DNA from: Candidatus Versatilivorator sp.
GTDB taxonomy: Bacteria; Acidobacteriota; Terriglobia; Versatilivoradales; Versatilivoraceae
Assembly: GCA_965207735.1 (NCBI GenBank)
Contig: OZ242296.1
Coordinates: forward strand, 3,008,001-3,072,000
Length of the DNA stretch: 64,000 nt
Reading direction: 5' to 3'
Shown here piece after piece: positions 35,085 through 38,301 of this stretch (position 1 is the first letter of the stretch; each line of letters begins with the position of its first letter). The notes under the pieces are model-generated. The model saw nothing but the letters and a program-made list of their open reading frames with translations. It ran no database searches and was not told where the DNA came from. The translations under genes and the position numbers were made by a program.

Positions 35085-35397
35085 GGCGGTTTTCTCGGGG
35101 CAAGGTGGTAGCCGGATCCCGGGCGGCTGATATCGATAGGACCATAGACGGCGCGGGCGGATGGAACTACAGGTTAGCCACGCCCCCATCCCACAGAACG
35201 GGACGGATCATACAGAGTTAAAAACCGGAAGTTCATGGCCTGTCGGGAACAAGGGCTTTGTCGTGCTAATTCGGATTGCTGCGTAATTGAACATTGATGC
35301 ACAGGATAGACAGGATTAACAGGAAAAGACTCTGCGCCACAGGAATCTGACTGGTTGATGATCGAGCGCGCCTTTGTGGATAACTCCTTTTTCTCTT

Positions 35398-35572
35398 GAG
35401 GCGTTTGCAAAATGCGGCAGCGGGATTCTTGCCGGGAATGGCCACAAAAGGCACAAAAACACAAAAAGAGCGGAACGAATCAAGAATTCGTTTTGTGCCT
35501 TTTGTGGTGAACCCGCAATTCCCACCGGGTCGCACCCGATATTGAAAAAGGCAGAACATCACGTTTGCCGGC
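35398..35572. mobile_element. Truncated inverted copy of the 35930-36267 MITE
   Basis: Aligns with the reverse complement of 35966-36267 apart from an internal deletion. Confidence 0.7.
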
Positions 35573-35690
35573 GAATTCAAAGACGAACCACGAATGGACA
35601 CGAATAGGGATGGACCCCCTTCAATGACCAACCGCGCCCGAATGTATCTGCGATATCGTGACCTTGATATCCCGACGTCATGGGAGGGAG

Positions 35691-35848
35691 CCACCCGGGA
35701 GCGCGGGCGTCCCGCCCGCAACCTTATTCGTGCAAGCAGCCTGCGATCCAGGGGCATTCCCTCGAACAGTGCACCAAACCGGCCTTTGCAGGGTTCGCTA
35801 CTATGGTGCCAAGTCCTATGCGGGCGAGACGCCCGCGCTCCCGGGTGG
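35691..35848. repeat. REP doublet (REPIN-like)
   Basis: ccacccgggagcgcgggcgtcccgcccgca ... tgcgggcgagacgcccgcgctcccgggtgg, ~30-bp inverted pair, each arm itself palindromic. Confidence 0.85.
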
Positions 35849-35929
35849 GCGTTCTCCCATTCACTCTTGCTCCTCAAGAGAGCGTGTCGGGTTGCCGGGC
35901 CGCAGCCCTGCCGTGCAGGTCATGCGAAA

Positions 35930-36267
35930 GAGCCTCTTGCAATATCGGCAGTGGGACAGGTCGTTTTGCCGGCAATCGTGATGTTCTGCCTATTTCAATA
36001 GTCGGGTGCGACTTGGTGAAAAAGGGGAGTTCACCACAAAAAGCACAAAAGGCACAAAACGGATTTCGTGATTTCGAGTCTTGGCAATCCGAAGTTGATC
36101 CCCATGGCGACGGGTTGACCGGATGTATGCAGATAGCGCGGAACTTGTGCGACGGGTTCGGGAGTCAACGTCTTGCAGGCTTTCAGTGTTCTGCTCTTTT
36201 TGTGTTTTTTGTGCCTTTTGTGGCCATTTCCGGCAAAGGTCACGCTGCCGAATTTTGCAAAAGGCTC
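35930..36267. mobile_element. Non-coding MITE-like element (338 bp)
   Basis: Imperfect ~22-bp TIRs GAGCCTCTTGCAATATCGGCAG / CTGCCGAATTTTGCAAAAGGCTC; internal CACAAAA and TTTTGTG arrays; no clear TSD. Confidence 0.7.
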
Positions 36268-36599
36268 ATCATTACGTCGGCTTGTGCGTCACTTCGGCTC
36301 ACCGGCATTTGCTGCCGCCGCTTCGCCGCTCTCAAGGAAGCCGGCTAAAGCAGCATATTCTCAGGTAAGTCCGGCCCCCGCCCTGGTGTGCGGATCATAC
36401 ATAGAGTGAAACAATCAGAAATCGATCAACCCTTCGTGAACTTGGTACCCCGTCGCGGTCAACCTCAGCGCCTTCGTGCCCCTTCGTGGTCCTTCGTGAC
36501 CCTTCGTGGATAAGTCTTTTTCTTTTGTCGTTTTGTCGTTTGTCGGTTGTTTCAGACAAGTCCCGCCCCCGCCCCCCACGACGGGCGGATCATTCGAGG

Positions 36600-36800
36600 G
36601 TGAAACAACGGATCATTGTGAAAGAATAAGCACCTGGCGAGACTCCGGCAGCTACGCCCCGTTCCAGCATTGGTGCCCCGTGCCCCAAGACAAGTCTGGG
36701 TCCGAGCAGGTCATCATTCATTAGTGAGGCTTCCCGGGAAGCTCTCCTCAAGGCAAGAATCCGAACGACCACGCCAACTCGGGCCGGAGCCCTCGCCCTG
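36600..36800. ncRNA. Candidate IS110 bridge/seek RNA
   Basis: Closing stem 36636-36649/36783-36797; AGACAAGTC and AGGCAAG segments matching the two junctions; ends and strand unknown. Confidence 0.55.
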
Positions 36801-36815
36801 GAGGAGGCCAATCTC

Positions 36816-38222
36816 ATGCAAAAGAGCAGGAAAGTCAACACGAAGGCGAAGAAGACCCCGAAGAAGAAGCGCAGCCGTTCGACAGCCTTGTCGCGGATCC
36901 ACCCCGAGGTGGCAGGGATCGACCTGGGGAGTCGGGAGCACTGGGTGTGCGCTCCGGAGGTGACCCCAGGGAAGCCGAACGTGCGCACCTTCGGCACCAC
37001 CATGGAGCAGTTGCAGCAACTGGCCGACTGGTTGCTGGAGCAAGGGGTGGAGTCGGTGGCGATGGAGAGCACCAACGTGTATTGGATTCCCCTCTACGAA
37101 CTGCTGGAGTCCTGCGGCATCGAGGTCTTGCTGGTCAACGCCCGGCAGTTGCGCTACGTTCCGGGCCGCAAGACCGACATGCGGGACTGCCAGTGGATCC
37201 AGTTGCTGCACAGTTGCGGCTTGCTGCGGGGATCCTTCCGTCCGCACGAGGCGATCGTCCGGGTTCGGACCCTGCACCGGCAACTGAGCACTCTGGGGGC
37301 CGAGAGTACCCGCTTTGTGCAGTGGATGCAGAAGGCGCTGGATCAGATGAACGTCCAGATCCATCGTGCGGTCACCGATCTGACCGGTCAGACGGGGATG
37401 GCGATCGTGCGGGCGATTGTCGACGGCGAACGGGACCCGGTCCGTCTGGCGGGTCTGCGGGACCGACGGTGCAAGAAGTCCAGCCGGGAGTTTGCCGAGC
37501 ACCTCAGAGGCAACTGGCGAGAAGAGCATCTGTTCAACCTCAAGTCGGCGCTGAAGCTCTACGACATGACTCAACGCGAGATTGCGGCCTATGAGGCCCG
37601 CATCCTGGAGGAAATCCAGGCGCTGCAACCGGTGGAGCGCCACGACCAGCCCGTGCCGAAGCATCCCAATGCGATCAAGGAAAAGGCGATTCGCCGCCGC
37701 GGTGGGCACCACCTGCGCACCGAACTGTGGCGCTTTGCCGGAGTCGATCTGACGCGTATCGACGGCATCGGCACCGAAGCGGCCCTGACCCTGCTGACTG
37801 AGGCCGGCCTCGACCTGACGGCCTTCCCCTCGGAGAAGCACTTTGTATCCTGGCTGCGCCTGGCTCCAAAAACGGCCGTCTCCGCAGGCAAGCCGCTCCA
37901 CTACAAGAAGGCCAACAGCACCGGGTCTACTCGCGCCGCCGCCGTCCTGCGCATGGCAGCCGTCTCTCTGAAGCACTCCAAGACCGCTCTGGGGGCCGCC
38001 TTCCGTCGCAAGGCCCGCCACAAGGGATGGAGTGTCGCCGTCTTCTCCATGGCTCGCCGGCTGGCCGTTCTCGTCTACCGCATGCTGCGCTACGGCCAGG
38101 ACTACATCGACATCGGGGAAGCGTGCTACGAGGACCGGTTCCGGCGACGACGCCTCGCGGGCCTCAAAGATGCCGCTAAGTCTCTTGGTTTCAACCTCGT
38201 TCCACAAATCGCAGCCGCTTGA
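36816..38222 (+). CDS. IS110 family transposase/recombinase
   Basis: DEDD residues (GIDLG, AMESTNVYW, KTDMRD); C-terminal SAGK serine; GGAGG RBS. Confidence 0.95.
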   Translation: MQKSRKVNTKAKKTPKKKRSRSTALSRIHPEVAGIDLGSREHWVCAPEVTPGKPNVRTFGTTMEQLQQLADWLLEQGVESVAMESTNVYWIPLYELLESCGIEVLLVNARQLRYVPGRKTDMRDCQWIQLLHSCGLLRGSFRPHEAIVRVRTLHRQLSTLGAESTRFVQWMQKALDQMNVQIHRAVTDLTGQTGMAIVRAIVDGERDPVRLAGLRDRRCKKSSREFAEHLRGNWREEHLFNLKSALKLYDMTQREIAAYEARILEEIQALQPVERHDQPVPKHPNAIKEKAIRRRGGHHLRTELWRFAGVDLTRIDGIGTEAALTLLTEAGLDLTAFPSEKHFVSWLRLAPKTAVSAGKPLHYKKANSTGSTRAAAVLRMAAVSLKHSKTALGAAFRRKARHKGWSVAVFSMARRLAVLVYRMLRYGQDYIDIGEACYEDRFRRRRLAGLKDAAKSLGFNLVPQIAAA

Positions 38223-38301
38223 ACTGCGGGGTTGTTTCAGGCAAGCGCGAACGCCCGATTGCCAGCTCGCAGGCCGGGGACGGCACTCAACTACTTGTGC
38301 C

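What the first reader, a model, noticed from the sequence alone, without database searches (positions are those of the whole stretch)
36545..36815. IS110 leader carries segments matching both donor and target junctions, in an unusual layout
Seen: AGACAAGTC (36688-36696) equals the element side of the left junction (36554-36562). AGGCAAG (36751-36757) equals the flank side of the right junction (38239-38245). Both start at the same AG (CT on the other strand) and lie 3' of predicted hairpins inside a closing stem (36636-36649/36783-36797). TGAAACAAC (36601-36609) is the inverse of the shared core. Known: IS621 bridge RNA has a target loop then a donor loop, with a CT core. Here the plus-strand order is donor then target and the matches are to the right halves, so the RNA may be antisense to the transposase or use a different geometry. 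I could not identify the second guide strand of each loop.
Basis: partly seen in the sequence, partly recalled or inferred. Interest (0 to 1): 0.7.

Follow-up and report, generated by a model that had tools for sequence, protein, structure and literature searches.

The report
Bridge RNA guides in IS110 leader
Two short words in the non-coding leader of this IS110-type jumping gene change in step with the DNA beside the element's left end and with the element's own right end across dozens of relatives, so they are very likely the target and donor guides of a bridge RNA of the known kind, in the usual target-then-donor order rather than the unusual layout first proposed.

Summary
The element is 36561-38245.

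- **First word:** 36688-94 equals the left flank (5 nt + AG). It is exact in 46 of 64 loci, with 27 different words and 0 of 2000 shuffles as good.
- **Second word:** 36751-57 equals the element's right end (5 nt + AG). It is exact in 52 of 55 loci.
- **Layout:** the order is target loop then donor loop, on the transposase-sense strand, as in IS621.
- **Fold:** a two-loop fold is supported by 13 compensatory pairs in 55 sequences.

There are real departures from IS621:
- Both guides lie on the 3' strand of their loops.
- The core reads AG on the RNA-sense strand (CT opposite).
- No core-adjacent second guide was found.
- The donor loop's 5' strand copies a box 29-35 nt inside the left end, past a hairpin.
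- The ends carry a 9-bp subterminal inverted repeat.

The target word nearly equals the element's own right end. A 182-bp repeat sharing both ends has about 200 copies. The scan has noted similar "mirror" and "folded donor" bridge RNAs on other DNA. Verdict: a new variant of a known kind.

The parts
36370..36560 (+). One copy of a ~182-190-bp repeat (U) that shares both ends with the IS. It starts with a hairpin, a GATCAT box and GTGAAACAAT, and ends with GGTTGTTTCAGACAAG. The IS is inserted at its right edge.
36554..36558 (+). Left target, 5 nt (AGACA). Flank-derived: this stretch varies among the 10 copies independently of IS lineage.
36559..36560 (+). Core dinucleotide AG at the left junction (CT on the - strand)
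   Evidence: It is the only sequence shared by left and right junctions in lineages whose target differs from the IS end
36561..38245 (+). IS110-family insertion sequence, 1685 bp, with the left core counted to the flank and the right core to the element
   Evidence: There are 10 copies in the genome.
36563..36588 (+). Hairpin just inside the left end (CCGCCC ... GGGCGG), kept by compensatory changes in relatives
   Evidence: alignment read by eye
36589..36595 (+). Left-end box ATCATTC, 29-35 nt inside the element, copied in sense in the donor loop
36601..36609 (+). Inner arm of the subterminal inverted repeat (TGAAACAAC)
36636..36797 (+). Structured core of the predicted bridge RNA, from the closing stem P1 5' strand (36636-49) to its 3' strand (36783-97)
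36656..36701 (+). Target-binding module. Basal stem 36656-59/36698-701, hypervariable 5' loop strand 36660-71, distal hairpin 36672-75/36683-85, 3' loop strand 36686-97.
36688..36694 (+). Target guide AGACAAG: same letters as the left flank's last 5 nt plus the AG core
36695..36695 (+). Handshake-like position: equals the first base of the element's left end in 32 of 38 lineage/junction pairs
36702..36782 (+). Donor-binding module. Basal stem 36702-06/36778-82 plus 36710-11/36773-74, 5' loop strand 36712-22, distal hairpin 36723-32/36739-48, 3' loop strand 36749-72.
36713..36720 (+). Sense copy (AUCAUUCA) of the left-end box on the 5' strand of the donor loop
36751..36757 (+). Donor guide AGGCAAG: same letters as the last 5 nt of the element's right end plus the AG core
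36816..38222 (+). Transposase/recombinase gene, 468 aa, with DEDD_Tnp_IS110 and Transposase_20 domains
38231..38239 (+). Outer arm of the subterminal inverted repeat (GTTGTTTCA) in the right end
38239..38245 (+). Right end of the element: left donor 5 nt (AGGCA) plus core AG. The flank starts at 38246.

Best explanation
The leader of this IS110-family element (36561-38245) very likely encodes a sense-strand bridge RNA. Its first internal loop would carry the target guide (36688-94, the letters of the left flank's last 5 nt plus an AG core). Its second loop would carry the donor guide (36751-57, the letters of the element's last 5 nt plus AG).

Shown by sequence comparison:
- the crossover dinucleotide
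- the two guide-to-DNA correspondences
- a two-module fold with compensatory changes
- a one-base 'handshake' correspondence (36695 with the first base of the left end)
- a sense copy of a left-end box in the donor loop
- a covarying 9-bp subterminal inverted repeat

Inferred:
- An RNA is made from the + strand, binds the 468-aa recombinase, and pairs these segments with the - strand of target and donor.
- Read on the - strand the core is CT, as in IS621. Each guide then corresponds to IS621's 3'-side guide (RTG or RDG: core + 5 nt) followed by a handshake position. The RNA-plus-recombinase cassette would therefore be inverted relative to the polarity of the recombination site compared with IS621. 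This is the order seen in IS1111-type seekRNAs.
- In this lineage the target word (AGRCAAG) is nearly the same as the element's own right end. Each insertion would then recreate a target. This would explain head-to-tail IS dimers in relatives and tandem arrays of a 182-bp end-sharing repeat.
For: **Family.** Pfam PF01548 (E 2.7e-22) and PF02371 (E 8.8e-12).

**Boundaries.**
- There are 10 copies at 97-100% identity.
- At the left junction, GGTTGTTTCAG and the next R base vary with the site. At the right junction they are constant with IS lineage.
- In L037-L045 the left junction reads ..GTGGTCAG|CCCAGCC and the right reads ..CAGACAAG|TGATCAG, sharing only AG.

**Own-genome covariation.** 36753 equals the right-end R in 10 of 10. 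36690 equals the left-flank R in 7 of 10.

**Relatives.**
- 74 of 133 loci scanned carry the scaffold.
- The locus's own target word is found exactly in the 105-nt left-junction zone in 46 of 64 loci, with 27 distinct words. The group mean is 0.824 against 0.041 in shuffles, 0 of 2000 as high.
- The locus's own donor word is found exactly near the right end in 52 of 55 loci, with 9 distinct words. The mean is 0.956 against 0.123, 0 of 2000 as high.

**Handshake.** The base after the core in the target guide equals the first left-end base in 32 of 38, with 0 of 5000 shuffles as high. The next base shows no signal (11 of 38).

**Fold.**
- 55 distinct sequences and 29 pairs give 96.9% of cells paired, with 13 pairs changed on both sides and 0 of 500 shuffles as high. 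Slid controls reach at most 61.3%.
- Both words lie 3' of the distal hairpins.

**Strand.** 66 G-U cells against 20 A-C cells.

**Published geometry.**
- In IS621 the 5' loop strand pairs with the bottom strand and the 3' strand with the top strand, and HSG position 81 covaries with donor position 7 (PMC11208160 and PMC11208158, passages).
- In IS1111 seekRNAs the top-strand complement is 5' of the bottom-strand match. In the IS110 member ISEc21 the order is reversed (PMC11187229, passages).

**Self-targeting.**
- TTTCAGRCAAG occurs 210 times against 2.3 expected.
- 68 units have a median length of 182 nt.
- The right end abuts the left end directly in L028 and L055.
Against: - No transcript has been shown with strand or ends. 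The only RNA evidence is unstranded contigs from four metatranscriptome runs of three studies, which cover the leader and the gene and could include DNA.
- No sigma-70-like promoter was found at the integrated junction or at a head-to-tail junction.
- Rfam has no match, and no solved structure matches by sequence at E <= 0.001.
- A second, core-adjacent guide was not found on either loop. The target loop's 5' strand against the right target scored 1.76 of 7 paired, against 1.92 in shuffles. The donor loop scored 1.16 against 1.16. The covariation matrix shows no antisense diagonal.
- Five variable letters plus AG give little specificity. All 10 insertions here lie at sites that also carry GTTTC upstream, so something else must contribute.
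- The matrix was computed on 46 loci chosen by their guide matches, so its diagonals are partly circular. avoid this.
- Exceptions: L035 (donor word 6 of 7), L050 (5 of 7 at its right end), L052 (target word 6 of 9), and 18 of 64 loci without an exact target-word match.
- The 'inverted cassette' reading rests on analogy with IS621 structures, not on any test here.
Confidence: 0.85

Rival explanations
1. The first word reads the donor (element side of the left junction) and the second reads the target (flank side of the right junction). Both match right halves from a shared AG at their start, so the RNA is antisense or uses a new geometry.
For: The strings match as stated. In this copy the first word extends 2 nt into the element (AGACAAG+TC), which looks donor-like.
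Against: - The left copy of GGTTGTTTCAG and the following R vary with the insertion site, while the right copy is constant.
- The second word follows the right-end R in 10 of 10 copies, including the L005/L007 sublineage.
- In lineages whose target is unrelated to the IS end, the first word follows the left flank (GGTCAG, CCCTAG, CCGTAAG and others). The second word follows the IS right end.
- G-U cells outnumber A-C cells 66 to 20.
Confidence: 0.03
2. The words are DNA-level relics or protein sites and not RNA guides. On this view the stretch from the first word to the box copy is a duplicated copy of the element's left terminus, kept similar by recombination or by binding the same protein.
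For: The stretch 36691-36726 runs parallel to the left terminus: CAAG|TC, a GC-rich stem, then ATCATTC...GTGA. All matches are in sense. The box copy covaries with the terminus. No transcript has been shown.
Against: - The first word covaries with the flank outside the element, which no internal duplication explains (27 distinct words).
- The region has a conserved fold with 13 pairs changed on both sides.
- The family is experimentally known to use such RNAs (PMC11208160 and PMC11187229, passages).
Confidence: 0.04
3. The geometry is plainly that of IS621. The two sense words are the ordinary left guides (LTG, LDG) on the 5' strands of loops whose true fold differs from the one derived here, and the right guides are very short or degenerate.
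For: As in IS621, the words equal left side plus core on the RNA-sense strand, in target-then-donor order. IS621's right target guide has only 2 non-core letters, which would be hard to detect.
Against: - The helices with compensatory changes place each word 3' of a distal hairpin and directly 5' of the basal stem's 3' strand.
- The base after the core follows the donor's first left-end base. That is the behaviour of IS621's 3'-side guide plus handshake, not of its left guide.
- The core on the RNA-sense strand is AG, not CT.
Confidence: 0.08

Closest known systems
IS621 bridge RNA and recombinase (IS110 group; Durrant et al. 2024, PMC11208160; Hiraizumi et al. 2024, PMC11208158; passages read)
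   Same: - DEDD plus Tnp-domain recombinase.
- Long non-coding left end upstream of the gene.
- RNA with a target module followed by a donor module, each built as a basal stem, an internal loop and a distal hairpin.
- Guides that include a 2-nt core.
- Variable target guide and more conserved donor guide.
- A handshake position next to the core.
- Insertion without duplication beyond the core.
   Different: - The readable guides are on the 3' loop strands yet have the sense of the left side plus core.
- The core is AG on the RNA-sense strand (CT opposite).
- No core-adjacent second guide was detected.
- The donor loop's 5' strand copies a box 29-35 nt inside the left end, past a hairpin.
- The subterminal inverted repeat is 9 bp, against 2-3 bp reported for the IS110 group.
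- The recombinase is 468 aa, and there is no PDB sequence match at E <= 0.001.
IS1111-family seekRNAs (ISEc11, ISKpn4, ISPst6, ISPa11; Siddiquee et al. 2024, PMC11187229; passages read)
   Same: The bottom-strand (sense) match lies 3' in the target-reading RNA. Subterminal inverted repeats are present. Some members have REP-like or structured targets.
   Different: - The non-coding region is upstream of the gene, not downstream.
- The inverted-repeat arm on the left side lies about 40 nt inside the end, not 3-7 bp.
- The transposase is 468 aa, against 330-350 aa given for IS1111 types.
- No top-strand complement was found.
ISPpu10 'sequence-structure dual match' (Na et al., bioRxiv 10.64898/2026.03.19.712850; abstract only)
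   Same: An IS110 element whose repeated target carries a GC-rich stem-loop next to the RNA-matched site. Here many targets, and the element's own left end, carry a GC-rich hairpin 2 nt from the core.
   Different: There the stem-loop is described as a 5' extension of the target that acts as a specificity gate. Here the hairpin's role is untested, and it is also part of the donor.

Membership tests
IS110 family insertion sequence | Recombinase with an N-terminal DEDD (RuvC-like) domain and a C-terminal Transposase_20 domain | tested here: met
   PF01548 over residues 33-178 (E 2.7e-22) and PF02371 over residues 312-389 (E 8.8e-12). Catalytic residues were not checked individually.
IS110 family insertion sequence | Site-specific insertion with only a short core repeated at both junctions | tested here: met
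   All 10 copies lie after ..TTTCA(G/A)RC(A/G)AG. Only AG is shared in lineages with unrelated targets.
IS110 family insertion sequence | Circular intermediate with a promoter rebuilt across the right-left junction | tested here: inconclusive
   Head-to-tail junctions exist in relatives (L028 and L055), but the sigma-70 scan found none at such a junction or in the window. No circle data are available.
Bridge RNA / seekRNA (general) | Structured RNA gene in the long non-coding end with two internal-loop modules | tested here: met
   55 sequences, 29 pairs, 96.9% paired, 13 pairs with changes on both sides, 0 of 500 shuffles as high. Transcription itself is not shown.
Bridge RNA / seekRNA (general) | Loop segments that covary with target and with donor DNA | tested here: met
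   Target word exact in 46 of 64 loci and donor word in 52 of 55, each with 0 of 2000 shuffles as high. Own-genome copies agree in 7 of 10 and 10 of 10.
IS621-type bridge RNA geometry | The 5' loop strand has the sense of left side plus core, and the 3' loop strand is complementary to core plus right side | tested here: not met
   The sense guides lie on the 3' strands. There is no complement to core plus right side (no antisense diagonal).
IS621-type bridge RNA geometry | CT core on the RNA-sense strand | tested here: not met
   The core is AG on the + strand and CT on the - strand.
IS621-type bridge RNA geometry | Handshake position beside the 3'-side target guide that covaries with the donor base next to the core | tested here: met
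   36695 equals the first left-end base in 32 of 38, 0 of 5000 shuffles as high. This holds when the site is read on the - strand.
IS1111-type element | Long non-coding region and RNA downstream of the transposase gene | tested here: not met
   The leader is 255 nt upstream. Only 23 nt follow the stop codon.
IS1111-type element | Subterminal inverted repeats of 11-13 bp lying 7 and 3 bp from the ends | tested here: not met
   The repeat is 9 bp. The right arm ends 6 nt from the end, and the left arm starts 41 nt inside. It covaries across 27 distinct arms (0 of 2000 shuffles as high).
IS1111-type element | The bottom-strand match lies 3' of the top-strand complement in the target-reading RNA | tested here: inconclusive
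   The bottom-strand match is on the 3' loop strand, but no top-strand complement was found.

The most novel reading that the evidence does not exclude
This clade reads both substrates through one DNA strand only.
- The donor loop grips the element's joined ends as a folded or hairpin-interrupted strand. One loop strand would pair at the core and the other at a box beyond a hairpin.
- The RNA donor module is a circularly permuted mimic of that junction.
- The RNA-recombinase cassette is inverted relative to the site polarity of IS621.
- Because the target word equals the element's own right end, the system targets itself. It has amplified a 182-bp transposase-less derivative to about 200 copies in head-to-tail arrays. 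That would be RNA-guided MITE amplification.
Probability: 0.3. Interest if true: 0.75.

Novelty: new variant of a known kind. Interest (0 to 1): 0.55.

Why it matters
Bridge and seek RNAs are being engineered as programmable recombinases, and most rules come from IS621 and a few relatives. This clade has at least 55 distinct RNA sequences from several phyla of soil and marine bacteria. It appears to offer a natural example in which several things differ:
- the readable guides sit on the other loop strand
- the core is read on the other DNA strand
- donor recognition involves a distal box past a hairpin

If confirmed, this would widen the design rules, with a short 5+2-nt target guide plus a structural or distal determinant. 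It would also link the IS110 and IS1111 arrangements.

The self-targeting logic would be an RNA-guided route to tandem repeat arrays and MITE-like families. It could explain part of the repeat load of this genome: 210 copies of an 11-mer where 2.3 are expected.

Tried and rejected
- **Single-sequence folds.** Folds of 36600-36815 on either strand were no better than shuffles (z +1.39 and +0.68) and were uninformative.
- **Databases.** Rfam gave no hit at E <= 1. PDB sequence search gave no hit at E <= 0.001.
- **Promoters.** Sigma-70 scans found none in the window or at the L028 head-to-tail junction.
- **Partner for the target loop's hypervariable 5' strand (36660-71).**
  - Longest-common-word tests against left flank, right flank, core plus right flank, left end and right end, on both strands, found nothing. 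With 26 distinct variants, the best result was sense against the distal left flank, matched by 58 of 1000 shuffles.
  - The position-specific antisense test against right flank +1..+7 was negative.
  - A position-specific sense match to left flank -12..-6 scored 2.93 of 7 against 2.12, with 0 of 2000 shuffles as high and 14 offsets tried. It is driven by two lineage groups, this one included (GUU(C/U)CAG against GTTTCAG). I treat it as a weak lead, not a guide.
- **Tertiary helix.** A helix between 36660-64 and 36763-67 had 48.6% of cells paired and was no better than slid controls, so it was rejected.
- **GGCGAGACT (36636-44).** I considered it as a complement of core plus left end, but it does not covary (read by eye) and it is part of stem P1.
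- **IS boundary.** I considered an IS starting after 36612, with the repeat intact. This was rejected because the right flanks differ among copies, and some carry their own copy of the hairpin-box segment.
- **RNA-library contigs (X15-X18).** They cover the leader and the gene but give no strand, ends or level. One contig stops at 36695 next to adapter-like letters. I draw nothing from this.
- **Earlier notes of the scan.** Nothing was recorded near this place or by sequence.

Full report
**1. Observation**

The strings are all present at the stated coordinates:
- AGACAAGTC at 36688-96 and 36554-62
- AGGCAAG at 36751-57 and 38239-45
- TGAAACAAC at 36601-09, the reverse complement of GTTGTTTCA at 36546-54 and 38231-39

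A 468-aa ORF (36816-38222) carries the two IS110 Pfam domains. The word AGRCAAG is not rare in the window, with 18 copies against 14.4 expected. Counting alone is therefore only suggestive, and the case rests on comparison.

**2. Where the element ends**

The genome holds 10 copies at 97-100% identity. Aligning their junctions gave three results.
- The left copy of GGTTGTTTCAG varies with the site: GTTTG.. in L004 and L010, ..CAA in L006. So do the following R and, in L010, the third base of RCAAG. The sequence is constant from TCCCGCC onward.
- At the right junction, CTGCGGGGTTGTTTCAG is constant and R follows IS lineage. Sequence diverges immediately after RCAAG.
- The crossover therefore lies at the end of RCAAG.

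Relatives settle the point. In the 80%-identity lineage (L037-L045) the left junction is ..GTGGTCAG|CCCAGCC and the right is ..TTTCAGACAAG|TGATCAG. In L046-L055 the two junctions likewise share only AG. The core is AG at 36559-60 and 38244-45, and the element is 36561-38245 (1685 bp). That turned 'left flank + core' into 'element side' and 'right end + core' into 'flank side'.

**3. The two words are guides**

Within this genome, the polymorphic R inside the second word (36753) equals the R of the right end in 10 of 10 copies. It is A only in the sister copies L005 and L007. The R inside the first word (36690) equals the R of the left flank in 7 of 10 copies.

Across 130 loci fetched from genomes and metagenomes, plus three of this genome's own copies, 74 of 133 scanned loci carry the same RNA scaffold. 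Two tests that do not use the words to find the junctions were run.

| Word | Search zone | Exact matches | Distinct words | Group mean vs shuffles | Shuffles as high |
|---|---|---|---|---|---|
| Target (first) | 105-nt left-junction zone | 46 of 64 loci | 27 | 0.824 vs 0.041 | 0 of 2000 |
| Donor (second) | 420-nt right-end zone | 52 of 55 loci | 9 | 0.956 vs 0.123 | 0 of 2000 |

The matches sit just before a GC-rich hairpin on the left and just after GTTTC on the right.

Exceptions:
- L035: donor word 6 of 7
- L050: 5 of 7 at its right end
- L029: right end missing
- L052: target word 6 of 9
- 18 of 64 loci have no exact target-word match

A column-by-position matrix shows clean sense diagonals, 36688-92 with target -7..-3 and 36751-55 with donor -7..-3, and no antisense diagonal. 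That set of 46 loci was chosen by guide matches, so it is only illustrative.

The first word is therefore the target guide and the second is the donor guide. The first is variable and the second conserved, as reported for IS110 RNAs (PMC11208160, passage).

**4. Fold and strand**

An alignment of 55 distinct sequences gives a consensus that I tested as written.
- 29 pairs in 6 helices, with 96.9% of cells paired.
- 13 pairs changed on both sides, with 0 of 500 shuffles as high on every measure.
- Slid controls reached at most 61.3% paired.

In window coordinates the helices are:

| Element | 5' strand | 3' strand |
|---|---|---|
| P1 closing stem | 36643-49 | 36783-89 |
| P1 outer extension (not among the 29 tested pairs) | 36636-41 | 36792-97 |
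| Target module, basal stem | 36656-59 | 36698-701 |
| Target module, distal hairpin | 36672-75 | 36683-85 |
| Donor module, basal stem | 36702-06 | 36778-82 |
| Donor module, basal stem (second part) | 36710-11 | 36773-74 |
| Donor module, distal hairpin | 36723-32 | 36739-48 |

Each word lies on the 3' strand of its internal loop. The supported helices contain 66 G-U cells, which would be A-C on the other strand, against 20 A-C cells. This favours a + strand RNA.

The order is target module then donor module, as in IS621.

**5. What differs from IS621**

In IS621 the 5' loop strand has the sense of left side plus core, and the 3' strand is complementary to core plus right side. The core on the RNA-sense strand is CT. 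Here the sense words are on the 3' strands and the core is AG.

The base after the core in the target guide (36695) equals the first base of the left end in 32 of 38 lineage/junction pairs, with 0 of 5000 shuffles as high. The next base carries no signal, at 11 of 38.

Read on the - strand, the core is CT. The target guide then pairs with CT plus 5 nt to its 3' side, and the extra base pairs with the donor base just 5' of the core. This is the relation reported for IS621's RTG plus handshake position 81 with donor position 7.

I therefore infer that the chemistry is the same, but the RNA-recombinase cassette is inverted relative to the site's polarity. The published IS1111-type seekRNAs have the same order, with the bottom-strand match 3', but their RNA lies downstream of the gene.

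**6. The other loop strands**

*Donor loop.* Its 5' strand carries AUCAUUCA (36713-20). This is a sense copy of a box (36589-95) that lies 29-35 nt inside the left end, just past a conserved hairpin (36563-88).
- The two change together: ATCGTTCA, ATCCTTC, CCTATCA, CATACA, ATTTTTCA, GATCATCCA and others.
- 29 distinct variants give a mean common word of 7.3 against 5.43 in shuffles, with 0 of 500 as high. The antisense control gives 5.12 against 4.93.

If this is base pairing, both donor-loop strands read the - strand on either side of the hairpin. The donor would then be read folded or with the hairpin looped out. The donor module would look like a circularly permuted RNA copy of the joined ends, with the distal hairpin in place of the inverted-repeat stem and the basal stem in place of the end hairpin. 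This is inference.

*Target loop.* Its 5' strand (36660-71) is hypervariable even between 95%-identical elements. I found no partner for it. There is only a weak sense similarity to left flank -12..-6 in two lineage groups.

No core-adjacent complement to the right target or the left end exists.

**7. Ends**

GTTGTTTCA (38231-39) and TGAAACAAC (36601-09) form a subterminal inverted repeat. Its variable positions covary, as in AGGTTTCA, AAGTTTCA, GTGTTTCA and GTAGTTTCC. There are 27 distinct arms, scoring 7.63 against 6.07 in shuffles, with 0 of 2000 as high.

**8. Surroundings: a self-targeting family**

The IS in the window sits at the right edge of one copy (36370-36560) of a repeat. That repeat begins like the IS left end (hairpin, box, GTGAAACAAT) and ends like its right end (GGTTGTTTCAGACAAG).

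Genome-wide counts:
- TTTCAGRCAAG occurs 210 times against 2.3 expected. Of these, 115 are followed by the box and GAAAC.
- Successive sites are 180-199 nt apart 61 times and 60-69 nt apart 14 times. The 68 units have a median length of 182 nt.
- Of 201 left-end-like starts, 107 are not preceded by another element's TTTC. Of those 107, 85 are preceded by AG and 57 are within 2 mismatches of AGRCAAG. Several of these left flanks are themselves repeated, so they are not all independent.

In this lineage the target word (AGACAAG or AGGCAAG) differs from the donor word by at most the R base. In L006, L008, L009 and L010 the two are identical.

I infer that each insertion recreates a target. This would produce head-to-tail IS dimers (L028 and L055) and tandem arrays of an end-sharing, transposase-less derivative. 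Slippage or unequal crossing-over could also grow arrays, so mobility of the repeat is not shown.

**9. Expression**

No sigma-70-like promoter was found. Contigs from four metatranscriptome runs of three studies cover the leader and the gene at 90-99% identity. They show the same A/G variants at 36690 and 36753. They give no strand and may include DNA.

**10. Comparison and novelty**

The element is an IS110-family member with a bridge/seek RNA, a kind known since 2024. It fails the IS621-type tests for guide strand and core strand. It fails the IS1111-type tests for RNA position and repeat position.

A target-side stem-loop determinant has been reported for ISPpu10 (abstract only).

Notes of this scan on other genomes describe a 'mirror-arranged' archaeal bridge RNA and a 'folded donor'. 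They are unchecked leads, but they suggest these arrangements recur.

I could not see the figures of the 2024 papers that show other IS110-group RNAs, so the arrangement may already be drawn there.

I rate the finding a new variant of a known kind, interest 0.55.

Noticed in passing
window 36370-36560; genome-wide in G000: A ~182-bp repeat that shares about 45 nt with the IS left end and 16 nt with its right end. There are 201 left-end-like starts in the genome, often in head-to-tail arrays of 2-7 sites. It is probably a transposase-less derivative of the IS.
   Followed up: partly
G000, 14 site pairs 60-69 nt apart; also upstream of L022, L025 and L027: Mini-units of about 62-66 nt made only of the left-end hairpin, box and inner repeat arm followed directly by the outer repeat arm and AGRCAAG. 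In effect these are bare joined ends. A double-stranded circle of that size seems unlikely, so their origin is unexplained.
   Followed up: no
L028:2892-3000 and L055:1440-1500: Head-to-tail IS dimers in relatives. The right end of one copy abuts the left end of the next across a single AG.
   Followed up: partly
L037-L045 flanks: The 80%-identity lineage inserts into arrays of GTGATCA/GTGGTCA heptamers. Its target word is GGTCAG.
   Followed up: partly
window 36610-36624: A second, shortened copy of the box plus repeat arm (GGATCATT-GTGAAAG) lies directly after the first (36587-36606). Its function is unknown. It is conserved only among close relatives.
   Followed up: no
window 36420-36520 and 35200-36350: The repeat body is full of CCCTTCGTG-like short repeats. 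The 1.1 kb upstream holds other repeat families with similar CTTTTGTG/CTTCGTG words, so this intergenic region is almost entirely repetitive.
   Followed up: no
L025:1501-3554: One relative's recombinase match spans 2054 nt instead of about 1400, which suggests an insertion inside the gene.
   Followed up: no
window 36690 and 36753, in contigs of runs X17 and X18: RNA-library contigs from other samples carry G at 36690 and A at 36753. These are the same two guide positions that vary among the copies of this genome.
   Followed up: partly
window 36816-36905: The recombinase starts with a lysine/arginine-rich stretch of about 30 residues (MQKSRKVNTKAKKTPKKKRSRS...) ahead of the DEDD domain. The copies L005-L010 are 12 nt shorter somewhere between the two anchors used.
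   Followed up: no
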